Of a stretch of 7,198 bases of DNA, positions 1,861 to 7,198 are shown piece by piece; the first letter of the stretch is position 1, and each line of letters starts with the position of its first letter. Origin of the DNA: a virus (taxonomy: Duplodnaviria; Heunggongvirae; Uroviricota; Caudoviricetes). Where the stretch lies: the IMG/VR virus record IMGVR_UViG_2698536458_000011; one strand, written 5' to 3'. The translations under genes were made by a program, and so were the position numbers. The notes beneath the pieces were generated by a model. The model worked only from the letters and a program-made list of their open reading frames with translations, was not told the origin of the DNA and made no database searches.

Positions 1861-2337
1861 NNNNNNNNNNNNNNNNNNNNNNNNNNNNNNNNNNNNNNNN
1901 NNNNNNNNNNNNNNNNNNNNNNNNNNNNNNNNNNNNNNNNNNNNNNNNNNNNNNNNNNNNNNNNNNNNNNNNNNNNNNNNNNNNNNNNNNNNNNNNNNNN
2001 NNNNNNNNNNNNNNNNNNNNNNNNNNNNNNNNNNNNNNNNNNNNNNNNNNNNNNNNNNNNNNNNNNNNNNNNNNNNNNNNNNNNNNNNNNNNNNNNNNNN
2101 NNNNNNNNNNNNNNNNNNNNNNNNNNNNNNNNNNNNNNNNNNNNNNNNNNNNNNNNNNNNNNNNNNNNNNNNNNNNNNNNNNNNNNNNNNNNNNNNNNNN
2201 NNNNNNNNNNNNNNNNNNNNNNNNNNNNNNNNNNNNNNNNNNNNNNNNNNNNNNNNNNNNNNNNNNNNNNNNNNNNNNNNNNNNNNNNNNNNNNNNNNNN
2301 NNNNNNNNNNNNNNNNNNNNNNNNNNNNNNNNNNNNN
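1861..2337. other. Run of 477 N (assembly gap or masked sequence)
   Basis: Uninterrupted n characters; nothing can be annotated here. Confidence 0.98.
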
Positions 2338-2421: not shown

Positions 2422-2497
2422 TGGTGGCCCTTGCTGGATTTGAACCAGCGACCTGGCGATTATGAGTCGCTCGCTCTCACCACTGAGCTAAAGGGCC
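2422..2497 (-). tRNA. tRNA with anticodon CAU, 76 nt with encoded CCA; resembles E. coli tRNA-Ile2 (ileX/ileZ-like), tRNA-Met not excluded
   Basis: Reverse complement: GGCCCTTTAGCTCAGTGGTGAGAGCGAGCGACTCATAATCGCCAGGTCGCTGGTTCAAATCCAGCAAGGGCCACCA. 7-bp acceptor stem GGCCCTT/AAGGGCC, GTTCAAATCC T-arm, CAT at positions 34-36, 3' CCA. Differs at only a few positions from the ileX sequence as I recall it. Confidence 0.9.
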
Positions 2498-2599: not shown

Positions 2600-3454
2600 T
2601 TATGACGAATTTACCACAGATTCCGGAAAAATCAACCTAGTTACCTTTTTTAACTGCCGCTCAGCCCATGCTTCTTCAATATCAAACCGGGTCACCAGCG
2701 CATCATAGAATTTCTTAACTGTTTTTTCCCATGACGCGCGTGTTATCTGGTTTGTCACCTCGCATATAGCATTAAATGCCTCCGTTGATGGTAGTCTTTC
2801 ATAGCCACGACCACCACAACGCTGGCAGTCTCTGATAACAGGCATACCACGTTTTACCGACTCTTCACGATGAATGGCGACACCACGCCCACGGCAATCC
2901 TTACAGGCGGTGGAAACCTCACCCTTTCCGCCACACTCCGGACAGGCAACTTTTACCACCTCCCTGACTTTTTTCCATTCTTCCCAGTAAGACGGATACA
3001 CACCTTTCGTACACTTTGCCCATACCGGCGGCTTACCATCCGGATACTGGATCTTGTTTGTAAAAACCTCGCTTTCAATAAATTTTTTTCCGTGACAGCA
3101 GGGGCACTGTTTTTTGCTCGCCGCGCTACGGGCATAATCTTCAAACGCATACGAAGCCATAATACGCATCACTGCCGGTTTTATTTCTGCCGGGAGTTTT
3201 CTTAACGCCGCCACGCGATCACACCGACTGAGTGCATATTCTGTCAGCAATTCTGTTGCCCGCTCTCTGTCATTCATACTAATGCCCATTTTCCCAAGGA
3301 ACGCAGAAACCCCCATCTCAGCCCGATTCTGTGTCATGCCCTGCGCGGCCATCACATCAGTGATACTCAGCGCATCTTTCGACGTTGAGGCCGATGCATC
3401 AGTCAGGCCGGGGGATTTTGGGGAGTAGTATTTCGGTAAATCTTCCAGTTTCAT
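2600..3454 (-). CDS. Q-like late antitermination protein (QuuQ/Q82-type family suspected), 284 aa, with four DnaJ-type CxxCxGxG repeats
   Basis: ATG at 3454 overlaps the rusA stop (ATGA). The position, directly after rusA and before a terminator plus tRNA, is the canonical Q slot. The N-terminus MKLEDLPKYYSPKSP resembles Q-like prophage antiterminators from recall. Repeats at aa 117-124, 171-178, 184-191, 210-217. Confidence 0.65.
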   Translation of the reverse strand: MKLEDLPKYYSPKSPGLTDASASTSKDALSITDVMAAQGMTQNRAEMGVSAFLGKMGISMNDRERATELLTEYALSRCDRVAALRKLPAEIKPAVMRIMASYAFEDYARSAASKKQCPCCHGKKFIESEVFTNKIQYPDGKPPVWAKCTKGVYPSYWEEWKKVREVVKVACPECGGKGEVSTACKDCRGRGVAIHREESVKRGMPVIRDCQRCGGRGYERLPSTEAFNAICEVTNQITRASWEKTVKKFYDALVTRFDIEEAWAERQLKKVTRLIFPESVVNSS

Positions 3455-3825
3455 TTTTTGACCTGCTCTTCATGCATTATGGGGTAAATCTTCACCCCCA
3501 GACGTCCACCAGATACTGGCTGACCACGAACGATATTGATTTCATCAAACTGCTCATCGTCCATTAACACTCCCGCATGTGTCAGTGCATCCAGTGGTGC
3601 TTTCAGGATATTGTCCAGGTCACGACGGCGCTTATCCGGTGGCTCTGCAATAATCTTTATCGCCAGTCTTCCGGACAGGCTTAATTTCAGTCGCTGCTGA
3701 CGGACAATAAGCGCCACATCCCGGCGATAACGCTCACCGGCTTTTGATACAAAATATGTGTTGTCACGACGTCGCCAGTAAGTATTCACCGTCGGCGGAT
3801 AAGGTAAAATAAACTCATGGCGCAT
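3451..3825 (-). CDS. rusA: Crossover junction endodeoxyribonuclease RusA (Holliday junction resolvase), 124 aa
   Basis: RusA family hallmarks: LPYPPTVNTYWRRR near the N-terminus, RRRDLDN, DAL..DDEQ, GGRL. AGGAGG Shine-Dalgarno 10 nt upstream of the ATG at 3825. Confidence 0.85.
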   Translation of the reverse strand: MRHEFILPYPPTVNTYWRRRDNTYFVSKAGERYRRDVALIVRQQRLKLSLSGRLAIKIIAEPPDKRRRDLDNILKAPLDALTHAGVLMDDEQFDEINIVRGQPVSGGRLGVKIYPIMHEEQVKK

Positions 3826-4082
3826 CAGCGCAGCACCTCCTGCACCAGTTTTTCAAACTTTCCGACTCTGGTTTCCAGCTCTGCCACACAGTCCACCAGC
3901 TCATCTACTGCTTTCTGTGCGCGATGCTTCGCCTGCATCAGTTCCCGAAGCGCGGGTACCATATCTTTACGGATAGCGTCTTTTGTTATGCCCGTTTTTT
4001 CGAGTTGTTCAGCATGACGCAGCATTTCCTGCGCGTGTTTACGCAATTGTTCAGGGGTAAAAGTCATTGTCTGGTTGTTCAA
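3825..4082 (-). CDS. Hypothetical small protein, 85 aa from TTG at 4082 (80 aa from ATG at 4067); predicted helical/coiled-coil
   Basis: GGAG sits 8 nt upstream of the TTG; the stop TGA overlaps the rusA ATG (TGATG). Charged, helix-forming composition (EQLRKHAQEMLRHAEQLEK...). It sits between the truncated and intact rusA copies. Confidence 0.5.
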   Translation of the reverse strand: MNNQTMTFTPEQLRKHAQEMLRHAEQLEKTGITKDAIRKDMVPALRELMQAKHRAQKAVDELVDCVAELETRVGKFEKLVQEVLR

Positions 4083-4206
4083 AAGAAACGCTCCATCTTA
4101 CTGCTGTCAGTTCGTTTATTACTGTATCTGCGCGGATTGCCGGGCTTCATGGGAGTGGAAAGCACCCGTGCACTTTCCTGGTCCACAGGCAGAAAATGTC
4201 CGTAGN

Positions 4207-4365
4207 GGACAGGCTTAATTTCAGCCGCTGCTGGCGAACAATAAGCGCCACTGCCCGGCGATAACGCTCCCCGGCTTTTGATACAAAATATGTGCTGCCA
4301 CGACGACGCCAGTAAGTGTTCACCGTCGGCGGGTAAGGTAAAACAAATTCTATGCGCTCGGTCAT
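4207..4365 (-). pseudogene. Truncated rusA remnant (N-terminal ~52 codons only)
   Basis: The ORF starts MTERIEFVLPYPPTVNTYWRRRGSTYFVSKAGERYRRAVALIVRQQRLKLSLS, then loses RusA similarity exactly at the ambiguous base n4206. DNA 4207-4353 is ~90% identical to 3673-3819. Its ATG directly follows the DUF968 gene stop (TAA-ATG). Confidence 0.75.
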
Positions 4366-6001: not shown

Positions 6002-6157
6002 TTACTCCTCAGGTTCGTAAGCTGTGAAGACAGCGACCTCCGTCTGGCCGGTTCGAATTCGTACCTCGCAGAGGTCTTTCCTCGTTACCAGTGCCGTCAC
6101 TATGACGGTTAAACAGATGACGATCAGGGCGATTAACATCGCCTTTTGCTGCTTCAT
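6002..6157 (-). CDS. hok: Hok-family type I toxin (HokD/RelF-like), 51 aa
   Basis: Translation MKQQKAMLIALIVICLTVIVTALVTRKDLCEVRIRTGQTEVAVFTAYEPEE is a canonical Hok sequence (single transmembrane helix, conserved C-terminal Cys). AAGGAG Shine-Dalgarno 9 nt upstream of the ATG at 6157. Confidence 0.9.
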   Translation of the reverse strand: MKQQKAMLIALIVICLTVIVTALVTRKDLCEVRIRTGQTEVAVFTAYEPEE

Positions 6158-6214
6158 AGCCTGCTTCTCCTTGCCTTTCGGCACGTAAGAGGCTAACCTA
6201 GATTTGCCGTTCAT
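6002..6214 (-). CDS. mok: mok-like reading frame (in-frame N-terminally extended, 70 aa) that mediates hok translation
   Basis: ATG at 6214 opens a 70-codon frame that contains hok in frame, the same geometry as known Mok/Hok pairs (e.g. MokC/HokC). GAGG lies ~10 nt upstream. Confidence 0.55.
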   Translation of the reverse strand: MNGKSRLASYVPKGKEKQAMKQQKAMLIALIVICLTVIVTALVTRKDLCEVRIRTGQTEVAVFTAYEPEE

Positions 6215-6333
6215 AGATTGAGCCTCAGATTAATGTTAAGCGTCTTGCCGGACGCGTAATGTTAACTGGGGCTTTTCTCTATCTGCCTTTTGGTGTTCAT
6301 GCCTGAGACAGATAGCCTCAAGCACCCGCTGCA

Positions 6334-6361
6334 ATTCTACTTAACTCTCCTTTTCCCGCAA
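6334..6361 (-). promoter_or_regulatory. Candidate hok/mok promoter (minus strand -35 TTGCGG, 16-bp spacer, -10 TAGAAT)
   Basis: Plus-strand ccgcaa at 6356-6361 and attcta at 6334-6339. The predicted start (~6325-6327) would begin the transcript with GGGUGCUUGAGG, which is complementary to CCUCAAUGCACCC near the 3' end (plus strand 5940-5952), as in hok fold-back inhibition. Confidence 0.45.
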
Positions 6362-6368
6362 ACCGTTT

Positions 6369-6452
6369 TTATCCCCAGCGGCAAATCGAATACACCACCA
6401 GCGCCACCGCCATCGCAATTCCTACCGTTGTTAATGCTTCAGGCCAGGTCAT
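6369..6452 (-). CDS. Putative 27-aa hydrophobic peptide ([27 protein letters not shown])
   Basis: Not in the supplied ORF track (too short). ATG at 6452 with a GGAGGA Shine-Dalgarno 9 nt upstream, overlapping the stop of the 114-aa ORF (ATGA). One predicted transmembrane helix. Ends just upstream of the hok promoter. Confidence 0.4.
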
Positions 6453-6793
6453 CGTAAAATATCCTCCACGCTTATCAGTCCGTTCCGCTCCAGATAACTC
6501 ATCGCCTTATCCGGTAATTTGCAGTCTGGCTTCGCTTTCCTCAGTTGCCAGGTTAACTGCTTTACCAGCATGGTTAACTCATCGACCAGACGCTGATATC
6601 CCACTGGTTTGTATTCATGCAATTTACCGGCTGGCTCTGCTGCCAGCGATACCAGTGCGATTTCCAGAACAGCAATATCCATCTTATATGTGCGGATGAT
6701 GTCATGGTCGATTGTGCCCGGTATGCACAGTCTCTGTGCTTCAATAGTCTCCTCTGCGTGAGCTATTAACTGCTCTCTGGTAAAAGTCGTCAT
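6449..6793 (-). CDS. Hypothetical protein, 114 aa; paralog of the upstream 55-aa ORF
   Basis: ATG at 6793 overlaps the stop of the 55-aa ORF (ATGA). Shares an MTTxT N-terminus and the motif [10 protein letters not shown] with the 55-aa ORF ([10 protein letters not shown]). Plus strand 6633-6661 matches 6836-6864 at 25/29 nt. Confidence 0.65.
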
Positions 6794-6957
6794 GCCGTAG
6801 CCCCTTCTTGATATTTTTCAAACCAGAACACAACCGGCTCTGCTTCCAGCGATGCCAGCGCAATCCGTGCCAGTTCCATTTGTTCACCACGGGTAAGCCC
6901 GTTTTCAAGCGGGTTTTTAATGAACAATTCAATACGTTCTTTGGTAATAGTGGTCAT
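6790..6957 (-). CDS. Hypothetical small protein, 55 aa ([55 protein letters not shown])
   Basis: Not in the supplied ORF track. ATG at 6957 lies 10 nt after the stop of the upstream partial ORF; its stop overlaps the next start (ATGA). Paralogous to the N-terminal half of the 114-aa ORF. Confidence 0.5.
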
Positions 6958-6967
6958 GTGTTACTCC

Positions 6968-7198
6968 TTAACCCGCAGTGCTTTCAACTGATGAGGGGAA
7001 CAAAATCTTTTCATCAAACCCTGCATTCATATCATGAACAGCAACACACCAATCCATCGACGAACGATTATCAAGAGCCTCCATGATTTCATCCATGCGG
7101 CGTAGGTCATACAGGTAAATGCTTTTATCGCCAATGGTGTAAAAGCCAATTTTTTTCGGTGATGGATGAGGTGTACTGGCAATAGCGGACACTACCAT
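6968..7198 (-). CDS. Hypothetical protein, C-terminal 76 codons (probably 5'-truncated by the window edge)
   Basis: Open frame on the gene strand running to the window edge, stop TAA at 6968-6970. The ATG at the edge may be coincidental. No recognisable motif. Confidence 0.5.
   Translation of the reverse strand: MVVSAIASTPHPSPKKIGFYTIGDKSIYLYDLRRMDEIMEALDNRSSMDWCVAVHDMNAGFDEKILFPSSVESTAG

What the first reader, a model, noticed from the sequence alone, without database searches (positions are those of the whole stretch)
6369..6957. Chain of translationally coupled small ORFs: two paralogs plus a 27-aa hydrophobic peptide, next to hok
Three consecutive minus-strand ORFs of 55, 114 and 27 aa are linked by ATGA start/stop overlaps at 6790-6793 and 6449-6452. 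The 55- and 114-aa proteins are paralogs: both start MTTxT and share [10 protein letters not shown] / [10 protein letters not shown], with a 25/29-nt DNA match (6836-6864 vs 6633-6661). The third ORF has a strong GGAGGA Shine-Dalgarno and encodes a single-helix membrane peptide, and was missed by the ORF track. I do not recognise any of the three. A soluble protein (or a long and short isoform pair) coupled to a tiny membrane peptide is the layout of many toxin-antitoxin, abortive-infection and superinfection-exclusion modules. Its position just upstream of a hok locus in the nin region makes it a plausible uncharacterised accessory module.
Basis: seen in the sequence. Interest (0 to 1): 0.7.

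Follow-up and report, generated by a model that had tools for sequence, protein, structure and literature searches.

The report
Unannotated 27-residue phage membrane peptide gene
The three overlapping small genes are real, but they are not one fixed module. The 27-codon gene belongs to a widespread, unnamed family of tiny phage membrane peptides that annotation pipelines skip, and the other two are shuffled pieces of the modular "EaA-like" accessory proteins of lambda-like phages.

Summary
ORFs of 55, 114 and 27 aa lie on the minus strand, joined by ATGA overlaps. They share a 25/29-nt direct repeat, GGAGGA sits 9 nt before the third ATG, and hokD/sok lies just downstream.

The window is a Qin-like lambdoid prophage of E. 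coli, and the ORFs sit between the replication genes and Q.

The 55- and 114-aa proteins are not a dedicated pair. They share the helical-hairpin N-module (…[10 protein letters not shown]) that heads many EaA, DUF551 and DUF550 proteins. The 29-nt repeat is a recombination joint: sister prophages differ by exactly the 203 nt between the repeats and encode one 101-aa hybrid.

The 27-codon ORF is a real gene and an independent mosaic unit. BLAST matches end exactly at its start and stop. It follows at least three unrelated upstream gene families and precedes hok, DUF4222 or other genes. 124 of 132 copies are exactly 27 codons. pN/pS is about 0.4–0.5 in its frame and 0.9–2.1 in the other two sense frames.

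A motif scan found about 40 further ORFs of 21–31 codons (MxWPEAFxxVG plus a hydrophobic helix and a basic C-end) in contigs of 33–71% GC.

No Pfam, PHROG, NCBIfam or PADLOC family matches. The function is unknown. Most likely it is an N-out/C-in inner-membrane peptide made by translational coupling. The reading as a toxin-antitoxin, abortive-infection or exclusion module is not supported.

The parts
6369..6452 (-). 27-codon gene, [27 protein letters not shown]. It encodes a single-helix membrane peptide of the 'MxWPEAFxxVG' family.
   Evidence: ORF. BLAST matches are bounded exactly at 6369-6452 in many E. coli genomes. 124 of 132 copies have 27 codons, and pN/pS is 0.37-0.47 against 0.9-2.1 in the other two sense frames. 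Mean Kyte-Doolittle hydropathy of residues 6-24 is 2.15.
6462..6467 (-). GGAGGA Shine-Dalgarno for the 27-codon gene. It lies inside the last codons of the 114-aa gene, 9 nt before the ATG.
   Evidence: Sequence. Every copy examined has an SD-like purine run at this distance, whatever the upstream gene.
6449..6793 (-). 114-aa EaA-like protein: an N-module (helical hairpin ending [10 protein letters not shown]), a linker, and a conserved C-module (ELTMLVKQL…[23 protein letters not shown]).
   Evidence: alignment; AlphaFold2, mean pLDDT 77.6; helices 6-26, 30-51, 64-87, 95-103, 109-113.
6790..6957 (-). 55-aa ORF: N-module only ([41 protein letters not shown]) plus a 14-residue tail. It is most likely the head of an EaA/DUF551-type gene cut short by module exchange.
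   Evidence: the same 41 residues head proteins with many different C-terminal parts. It is absent from the 101-aa recombinant arrangement.
6836..6864 (.). Copy 1 of the 29-nt direct repeat, encoding IALASLEAE(P). It is a recombination joint.
   Evidence: Alignments to L245-L247 break exactly here.
6633..6661 (.). Copy 2 of the 29-nt direct repeat, encoding IALVSLAAE(P). It is a recombination joint.
6002..6327 (-). Neighbouring hokD/sok type I toxin-antitoxin locus: hok CDS 6002-6157, in-frame longer ORF to 6214, leader up to about 6327. It is a separate unit, not part of the peptide gene.
   Evidence: Pfam HOK_GEF E = 3e-23. Rfam sok 6152-6327 at 112 bits. hokD is annotated in the near-identical prophage L001.
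6334..6362 (-). Probable hok promoter of its own: -35 TTTGCG at 6357-6362, 17-nt spacer, -10 TAGAAT at 6334-6339, start near 6327. It begins 6 nt after the peptide gene's stop codon. This is inferred, not shown.
   Evidence: Read from the sequence. The 5' end is placed by the Rfam match. The consensus scan did not score it.
6968..7198 (-). Upstream gene (phrog_1714, unknown function), cut by the window end. The full form is 87 aa in L001.

Best explanation
This stretch is a piece of the delayed-early accessory ('nin-like') region of a Qin-like lambdoid prophage. It holds three tightly packed but separable genes.

(1) The 55- and 114-aa ORFs belong to the modular EaA-like set of lambdoid-phage proteins. 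An exchangeable N-terminal helical hairpin ending in …[10 protein letters not shown] is joined to various C-terminal parts. The DNA encoding that conserved end is a homologous-recombination joint. Here it has left an N-module-only 55-aa ORF in front of a complete 114-aa gene. Recombination between the two 29-nt repeats gives the single 101-aa hybrid seen in sister prophages. This much is shown.

(2) The 27-codon ORF is a genuine, independently mobile gene. Its ribosome-binding site lies in the last codons of whatever gene precedes it, and its ATG overlaps that gene's stop. It is therefore most likely translated by termination-reinitiation coupling when the early operon is switched on after induction or infection. 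This step is inferred.

(3) The product is a single-pass inner-membrane peptide. Glu5 and the WPEAF motif are placed on the periplasmic side, and Arg25 on the cytoplasmic side. This topology is inferred from the charge distribution.

(4) The helix has small residues at G11/A15 and A13/A17, which form two small-xxx-small faces. These are suited to packing against other transmembrane helices. I therefore think the peptide most likely acts by self-association or by binding a host or phage inner-membrane protein. This step is inferred and is the weakest part of the account.

(5) The peptide is not a dedicated partner of the 55/114 proteins or of hok.
For: Gene status of the 27-codon ORF:
- BLAST matches are bounded exactly by the ORF (query 10-93 = window 6369-6452) after different genes, on chromosomes and on plasmids of about 97 kb. 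1,634 of 5,426 complete E. coli genomes carry it.
- It exactly fills unannotated gaps in 933W, TH18, a plasmid, and the DUF551/DUF4222 context.
- Of 132 copies, 124 have 27 codons; 100 have an ATGA overlap and 21 a TAATG/TGATG overlap.
- pN/pS is 0.37 overall and 0.47 for codons 12-27, which the search pattern did not constrain. The other two sense frames give 0.9-2.1; the antisense frame that shares third positions gives 0.42.
- In codons 12-27 there are 49 tolerated and 6 disruptive variants, against 105 and 39 possible (Fisher p = 5e-4).

Breadth of the family:
- A pattern that excludes the E. coli codon choice gave 46 unique hits in viral and metagenome contigs of 33-71% GC. About 40 are ORFs of 21-31 codons with hydrophobic residues 12-22 and a start that mostly overlaps the upstream stop.
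- Position counts on 42 divergent peptides of 20-31 aa, which include a few from the earlier scans: small residues at 13/15/17, none of them fixed by the pattern; a basic residue after position 20 in 37 of 42; no basic residue in the first 12 in 40 of 42.
- Klebsiella phage P18-100 has MDWPTAFCIVGCAFAIAWLFRS in an unannotated gap.
- Neighbours in environmental contigs include RusA, an HNH endonuclease and DUF3987, which points to phage early regions.

Modularity of the 55/114 pair.

Exact 203-nt difference at the repeats.
Against: - There is no direct evidence of translation. The small-ORF supplement of a ribosome-profiling study of E. coli O157:H7 Sakai does not list the peptide; I assume its cultures were not induced, in which case the prophage early genes would have been silent.
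- Variable sites are only mildly enriched at third codon positions (18/18/25).
- The antisense frame that shares third positions also gives a low pN/pS, 0.42.
- The collected copies are related, so the counts are not independent.
- The motif scans fix residues 1, 3-7 and 10-11, so conservation of the motif itself cannot be judged from them.
- A few copies are frameshifted or truncated: 5 of 76 after C-module genes, and phage POCJ13. The gene is therefore dispensable.
- Nothing tested here says what the peptide binds, or whether it is harmless or toxic.
Confidence: 0.7

Rival explanations
1. The three ORFs form one functional module, a toxin-antitoxin, abortive-infection or superinfection-exclusion system. 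The soluble 55/114 proteins control or partner the membrane peptide.
For: - Tight ATGA coupling.
- In an independent scan, 60 of 76 genes with the 114-aa-type C-module are followed by an intact 27-codon ORF.
- The location is among accessory genes, next to hok.
Against: - The peptide gene also follows DUF551, L0139-like, methyltransferase and other genes, with homology breaking exactly at its start.
- The 55-aa ORF is absent from otherwise identical prophages.
- Phage N15 has an unrelated, non-hydrophobic 18-aa ORF at the same ATGA after its EaA-like gp45.
- PADLOC, Pfam and NCBIfam give no significant match, and PADLOC none at all.
Confidence: 0.1
2. The peptide is a membrane-damaging toxin or a pore or lysis-timing factor, like a type I toxin or a holin. 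It acts by self-assembly in the inner membrane rather than by regulating a partner protein.
For: - Its size and hydrophobicity resemble those of type I toxins of 19-35 residues (my own knowledge).
- It has two small-xxx-small faces.
- A weak hit to a glycine-zipper model, DUF883_C, E = 0.029, far below the cut-off.
- It is expressed only from a repressed early operon, so toxicity would be tolerated.
Against: - It has no promoter of its own, no long leader and no antisense RNA partner. Rfam finds only sok, downstream.
- It has a single basic residue and no amphipathic character.
- It is not near the lysis genes.
- No match to any toxin family.
Confidence: 0.2
3. Only the act of translating the 27 codons matters, for example to keep ribosomes on the mRNA and prevent Rho-dependent polarity, or to couple the next gene. 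The peptide itself has no function.
For: - The ORF always sits in a tight junction between two genes, and the next start is often 2-7 nt after its stop.
- N15 has a different short ORF at the same place.
Against: - Amino-acid-level constraint: pN/pS of 0.4-0.5, conservative substitutions, and fixed G11, A15, A17, R25 and W26 in the E. coli set.
- The same motif, helix and basic C-end recur across contigs of 33-71% GC.
- Before hok the next gene has its own leader about 40 nt away, so there is nothing to couple.
Confidence: 0.08
4. The 27-codon frame is a chance ORF in an intergenic spacer or in the hok upstream control region.
For: It is not called by RefSeq or by most phage annotations.
Against: - The same ORF occurs without hok.
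- 51 of 52 alleles have stops in each of the other two sense frames, while this one stays open at a constant length.
- The exact peptide is deposited as a CDS in some GenBank records, for example as 'putative prophage protein' of E. coli 042.
Confidence: 0.02

Closest known systems
EaA-type proteins and N-module sharers: Salmonella 'Eaa protein' entries, phage records that label a gene here or a relative of it 'EaA protein', N15 gp45, ST64B Sb32, and DUF551/DUF550 proteins that share only the N-module
   Same: The 55- and 114-aa proteins share with these the N-terminal MTTITKE…[10 protein letters not shown] hairpin. The 114-aa protein also shares the C-terminal ELTMLVKQL…KLPDxAMxYLxRNGLxxxEDxLR module.
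   Different: The 114-aa protein is a minimal form, N-module plus C-module with no central part. The 55-aa protein is the N-module alone. Neither reaches any Pfam or NCBIfam model, including Ead_Ea22 and DUF551. The function of the whole set is unknown.
Phage N15 gene 45.1, an annotated 18-aa ORF that overlaps the stop of gp45
   Same: A tiny ORF starts at the same ATGA at the end of the same C-module, with the same GAGGAT…ATGA context.
   Different: The N15 product (MITTRKCMPAAAVSQETK) is polar and unrelated in sequence. It is not a family member.
Bacterial small single-pass membrane proteins that bind larger membrane proteins (KdpF, AcrZ, MgtS, CydX). This comparison rests on my own knowledge.
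   Same: Length of 20-50 residues, one helix, no signal peptide, often missed by annotation. There is a weak, non-significant resemblance to KdpF (TIGR02115, E = 0.12).
   Different: No sequence relationship. This peptide is phage-borne and sits in an early operon, and its partner, if any, is unknown.
Hok/Gef and other type I toxins (TisB, ShoB, DinQ, Ibs)
   Same: A small hydrophobic peptide, here lying right beside a hok locus.
   Different: No HOK_GEF match for the peptide. No leader, antisense RNA or promoter of its own. It is translationally coupled inside an operon and is often found without hok.

Membership tests
Toxin-antitoxin or defence module (type I or II TA, Abi, Sie) | At least one component matches a known toxin, antitoxin or defence protein model | tested here: not met
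   PADLOC gives no hit for the 55-, 114-, 27- or 76-aa products. Pfam and NCBIfam give nothing above their cut-offs.
Toxin-antitoxin or defence module (type I or II TA, Abi, Sie) | The components are inherited together as a unit | tested here: not met
   The peptide gene is found after at least three unrelated upstream gene families, and the 55-aa ORF is absent from sister prophages. The link to the 114-aa C-module is frequent (60 of 76) but not exclusive.
Toxin-antitoxin or defence module (type I or II TA, Abi, Sie) | The toxin arrests growth and the partner neutralises it, or the module excludes phage | not testable with these tools
   This needs expression and plaque assays.
Type I toxin (Hok-like) | Own promoter, structured leader and antisense RNA | tested here: not met
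   Rfam finds only sok/hok at 6152-6327, outside the ORF. No promoter-like site was found for the peptide gene, and its start overlaps the upstream stop.
EaA-like modular proteins of lambdoid phages | Significant sequence similarity to proteins deposited as EaA/Eaa | tested here: met
   P0090 'Eaa protein' from Salmonella matches the 114-aa query at E = 3e-15 and shares both modules with the window: its N-module is that of the 55-aa ORF and its C-module that of the 114-aa ORF. One search returns further 'Eaa protein' entries. Phage ON470583 carries an 'EaA protein' label among the features under the match.
Pfam Ead_Ea22 (PF13935) / DUF551 (PF04448) | A match to the family model at its gathering score | tested here: not met
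   No Pfam hit for either protein at E up to 1. Only the N-module is shared with DUF551 proteins.
Small single-pass membrane protein | One hydrophobic stretch long enough to span the bilayer, with charges distributed according to the positive-inside rule | tested here: met
   Mean hydropathy of residues 6-24 is 2.15. In the E. coli set Glu5 is the only acidic residue in nearly all peptides and Arg25 the only basic residue in most. In the divergent set, 40 of 42 have no basic residue in the first 12 positions and 37 of 42 have one after position 20. Membrane location itself was not tested.
Translationally coupled gene | The start codon overlaps or abuts the upstream stop, and the SD lies inside the upstream gene | tested here: met
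   ATGA in 100 of 132 copies and TAATG/TGATG in 21 of 132. An SD-like run lies 6-9 nt upstream in all copies read. Actual dependence on upstream translation cannot be tested here.

The most novel reading that the evidence does not exclude
The 'MxWP(E/T)AFxxVG + helix + basic end' peptides are one ancient family of 21-31-residue phage membrane effectors, found in phages of many Proteobacteria. They use a periplasm-facing WPEAF cap and two small-xxx-small helix faces to assemble with a conserved inner-membrane machine or with each other. This gives the phage a general function during early development, for example blocking entry of competing phage DNA, tuning membrane potential, or modulating a transporter or a division protein. 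If so, this would be one of the smallest widely conserved phage proteins, and it has been invisible because gene callers discard ORFs under 30 codons.
Probability: 0.25. Interest if true: 0.7.

Novelty: new member of a known kind. Interest (0 to 1): 0.5.

Why it matters
- About 30% of complete E. coli genomes (1,634 of 5,426) carry this 27-codon gene, as do the Shiga-toxin phages 933W, VT2-Sakai, VT1-Sakai, BP-4795 and Min27. RefSeq and most phage records nevertheless leave it as an empty gap.
- It has recognisable relatives in environmental phage-like contigs of very different base composition. That makes it a good test case for conserved micro-proteins in phage early regions.
- It gives a defined target for experiments on prophage induction in pathogenic E. 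coli.
- The 29-nt joint is a clean, base-exact example of how the EaA/DUF551 accessory genes swap heads and tails. This explains the confusing 'paralog' patterns in these regions.

Tried and rejected
- The search for related loci and the search for homologous proteins refuse queries as short as the peptide. I used degenerate DNA patterns instead.
- A full-text search for MTWPEA found nothing, and WPEAF returned five unrelated papers.
- The Sakai small-ORF supplements hold no match.
- A review of phage small proteins gave no relevant example.
- Pfam, NCBIfam, PHROGs and PADLOC gave no family for the peptide. The best hit was phrog_4612 at E = 0.011, probably in-frame-extended forms.
- A sequence search of the PDB and a Foldseek search with the 114-aa model gave nothing significant. 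Only generic helical hairpins appeared, best E = 0.3.
- Phage lambda has no copy; its orf28 is acidic and unrelated.
- The K-12 Rac and Qin prophages have no copy; in Qin, relBE occupies the place upstream of hokD.
- All-against-all BLASTP of neighbours of the environmental copies showed no conserved synteny.
- I considered that conservation of the ORF's 3' half might reflect the hok promoter. I rejected this because the same sequence occurs without hok, and the likely promoter starts after the stop codon.

Full report
**What is in the window**

All genes discussed here are on the minus strand. Reading down the coordinates, the window holds:
- a partial phrog_1714 gene (6968-7198);
- the 55-aa ORF (6790-6957);
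- the 114-aa ORF (6449-6793);
- the 27-aa ORF (6369-6452);
- hokD with its leader (6002-6327);
- a rem-like ORF, then DUF968, RusA, the Q antiterminator, a tRNA and a DNA methyltransferase.

A 99.5%-identical E. coli prophage (L001) shows the wider context. Upstream, in this order, lie a LexA-family repressor (the cI position), Cro, YdaT, replication genes and a run of ead/Ea22-like and hypothetical small genes. The three ORFs and hokD follow, and after hokD that prophage has an inserted HTH + ImmA/IrrE pair, a hypothetical ORF, then DUF968, RusA and Q. The element is therefore a Qin-like lambdoid prophage. The ORFs lie in its delayed-early accessory region between the replication genes and Q.

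**Check of the observation**

- the coordinates and the two ATGA overlaps;
- the shared MTTxT start and the [10 protein letters not shown] / [10 protein letters not shown] motif (33% identity, E = 1e-5);
- the 25/29-nt direct repeat at 6836-6864 and 6633-6661, which 0 of 200 shuffles reached;
- GGAGGA at 6462-6467, 9 nt before the third ATG;
- hok next door.

RefSeq annotates the 55- and 114-aa ORFs as hypothetical proteins and leaves the 27-codon ORF out.

**The 55/114 pair**

Neither protein matches Pfam, NCBIfam or PADLOC. Both match the same stretch (positions 116-165/170) of the large family phrog_60, and several other PHROGs of unknown function.

Database searches and alignments show a modular build:
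- an N-module of about 40-55 residues, existing in several alleles, all ending in …[10 protein letters not shown];
- an optional central part;
- different C-terminal parts.

The exact 41-residue N-module of the 55-aa ORF heads Salmonella 'Eaa' proteins, proteins labelled DUF551 or DUF550, a 97-aa Salmonella family and others. A closely related N-module allele heads the DUF551 protein in locus L007. The 114-aa protein's own N-module also heads a DUF551 protein, P0066.

The C-module of the 114-aa protein (ELTMLVKQL…[23 protein letters not shown]) is nearly invariant across about 30 aligned relatives. It also occurs in N15 gp45 and ST64B Sb32.

AlphaFold2 predicts a confident helical hairpin for the N-module (residues 6-51, pLDDT about 90). 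A disordered linker, a long helix and two short helices follow. Foldseek found nothing specific.

So the two are 'paralogs' only in the sense that they share a widely exchanged head. The 55-aa ORF is that head plus 14 residues.

**The repeat is a recombination joint**

Protein P0031 (101 aa) is the head of the 55-aa ORF fused to the body of the 114-aa ORF. The crossover lies inside IALASL|AAEP.

Three contigs that encode it align to the window as two blocks, 7166-6836 and 6661-5990 (or 6661-6369). The two blocks overlap in the contigs by exactly the 29-nt repeat. The two arrangements therefore differ by precisely the 203 nt between the repeats. Because 203 leaves remainder 2 on division by 3, the deletion also restores the reading frame between the two ORFs.

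The data do not show which arrangement came first. Either way the 55-aa ORF is dispensable.

**The 27-codon ORF is a gene, and a separate one**

Module boundaries:
- A 101-nt query around the ORF matches 1,634 of 5,426 complete E. coli genomes, with up to 7 places per genome, and also plasmids of about 97 kb. In many records the match covers exactly query positions 10-93, which are window 6369-6452.
- In 933W it lies between L0139 and sokW/hokW.
- In TH18 it fills the gap between two annotated genes, with no hok nearby.
- Elsewhere it lies between DUF551 and DUF4222, after a methyltransferase, or on a plasmid.
- In L247 the homology to the window stops at 6369, the last base of the stop codon.

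Conservation across the 132 copies collected with a degenerate pattern:
- 124 copies have 27 codons;
- 100 start with ATGA and 21 with TAATG or TGATG;
- upstream genes fall into at least three unrelated families; downstream genes are hok (about 40 copies), DUF4222 (about 20), another small gene (about 13) and others;
- every copy read has an SD-like run 6-9 nt before the ATG, and the last roughly 15 nt of otherwise unrelated upstream genes are alike. The ribosome-binding site thus travels with the small gene.

Selection:
- Over 52 alleles, pN/pS is 0.37 in this frame, and 0.47 for codons 12-27, which the pattern did not constrain.
- The other two sense frames give 0.9-2.1, and 51 of 52 alleles have stops in each of them.
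- The antisense frame that shares third positions gives 0.42, as expected for that frame.
- Distinct variants in codons 12-27 are 49 synonymous or helix-compatible against 6 disruptive. All possible changes would split 105 to 39 (p = 5e-4).

Annotation status:
- The exact peptide is deposited as a CDS in a minority of GenBank records ('putative prophage protein' of E. coli 042, 'bacteriophage protein', 'hypothetical protein').
- RefSeq holds a 45-aa in-frame-extended form.
- It has therefore been seen but never named or studied. Text searches found nothing relevant.

**A wider family**

The first genome scan already gave short hydrophobic ORFs in Izhakiella and Sphingobium among about 18 otherwise random hits.

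A second pattern excluded the CCT proline codon used by all the E. coli-type alleles collected. It returned 13 viral and 50 metagenome contigs, which gave 46 unique peptides:
- about 40 are 21-31 residues long;
- residues 12-22 are strongly hydrophobic;
- they mostly start on the stop codon of the upstream ORF;
- the contigs range from 33 to 71% GC;
- only two hits look like chance.

Position counts were made on 42 divergent peptides of 20-31 residues, which include a few from the earlier scans. Positions the pattern did not fix are shared with the E. coli set:
- small residues at positions 13, 15 and 17;
- an aromatic residue within positions 20-22 in 26 of 42, and at position 21 itself in 16 of 42 (Tyr21 in the E. 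coli set);
- a basic residue after position 20 in 37 of 42, usually close to the C-terminus;
- no basic residue in the first 12 positions in 40 of 42.

Klebsiella phage P18-100 has a 22-residue relative with WPTAF in an unannotated 72-nt gap.

Identifiable neighbours in the environmental contigs include RusA, an HNH endonuclease and DUF3987. By eye, some neighbours also resemble phage late-transcription regulators, but they matched no model. These are phage early regions, as here. No neighbour is conserved across the set.

**How it most likely works**

Shown: the gene structure, its independence from its neighbours, amino-acid-level constraint, its hydrophobic character and its charge distribution.

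Inferred:
- It is translated by coupling to the upstream gene, within the early operon that the repressor keeps silent in the lysogen.
- It inserts with the N-terminus out and the C-terminus in.
- It packs helix to helix through the G11/A15 and A13/A17 faces, either with itself or with a membrane protein.

I cannot say which target it has or what the phage gains.

hok appears to have its own promoter, starting 6 nt after the peptide's stop codon, and a 5' end near 6327. The two are therefore neighbours rather than one unit.

The C-module and the peptide gene do travel together often: 60 of 76 C-module genes found independently are followed by an intact copy, and 5 more by a frameshifted one.

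Against a dedicated module:
- the peptide gene is equally at home behind DUF551 and other genes;
- N15 carries an unrelated polar 18-aa ORF at the same junction;
- no defence or toxin model matches.

I read the frequent pairing as linkage within one group of closely related prophages, not as a functional pair. This remains testable.

**Verdict**

The feature is real. The novel part is the peptide family. It belongs to a known kind, small phage membrane proteins of unknown function, but it is unnamed, widespread and systematically unannotated.

The rest is ordinary lambdoid mosaicism, here resolved to the base.

Noticed in passing
window 1861-2337, 1200, 4206: A masked run of 477 N and two single N bases. 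ORFs crossing them are artefacts, and whatever gene lies at 1861-2337 cannot be read.
   Followed up: partly
window 4147-4365 versus 3451-3825: A second, truncated rusA-like ORF (MTERIEFVLPYPPTVNTYWRRRGSTYFVSKAGERYRR…) lies upstream of the complete rusA, with an 85-aa ORF (3825-4082) between them. It contains the N at 4206. This could be a partial duplication or a recombination scar.
   Followed up: no
window 2422-2497 and 1-58: A tRNA-Met (CAT) gene, and the 3'-cut end of another tRNA at the window edge. In L001, tRNA-Arg and tRNA-Ile genes sit downstream of the DNA-methyltransferase gene, where the cut tRNA at 1-58 lies.
   Followed up: partly
L243 (phage N15) 1635-1691: N15 gene 45.1, an annotated 18-aa polar ORF, starts at the same ATGA at the end of the EaA-like gp45 C-module. 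The junction is a reusable coupling site for different tiny ORFs.
   Followed up: yes
proteins P0011, P0278, P0283: Natural fusions exist. One is a 143-aa frameshift fusion of the 114-aa protein to the peptide. Another is a 45-aa form in which the start of an L0139-like gene is fused in frame to the peptide (RefSeq WP_423274943.1; 97 contigs for P0278). The second probably explains the weak hit to phrog_4612.
   Followed up: partly
L311 (Shigella phage POCJ13) 601-734: The peptide gene is disrupted here (MT, then a stop). The record instead annotates an opposite-strand ORF across the same DNA, which is probably spurious.
   Followed up: no
L015, L024; hits H22/H60; protein P0182: Short contigs assigned to Xanthomonas pisi, Acinetobacter idrijaensis and Leptospira interrogans, and an 'Actinobacillus phage' record, carry E. 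coli-type copies of these prophage genes at 93-96% identity or more. They are probably contamination or mislabelling.
   Followed up: no
L250, the ORF 84 nt downstream of its peptide copy: In an environmental viral contig of 58% GC, the gene after the peptide begins with a segment …IRAIAASLEADEPVAEIV… that resembles the EaA N-module end. The head module may also reach beyond enterobacterial phages.
   Followed up: no
L002 (933W) 2468-2494, also L003 and L005: The opposite strand near sokW would encode LGLFSICRW, echoing the peptide's YSICRW. This is a short inverted repeat of about 15-18 nt between the end of the peptide gene and the sok region in the 933W-type loci. It is not seen in the window.
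   Followed up: no
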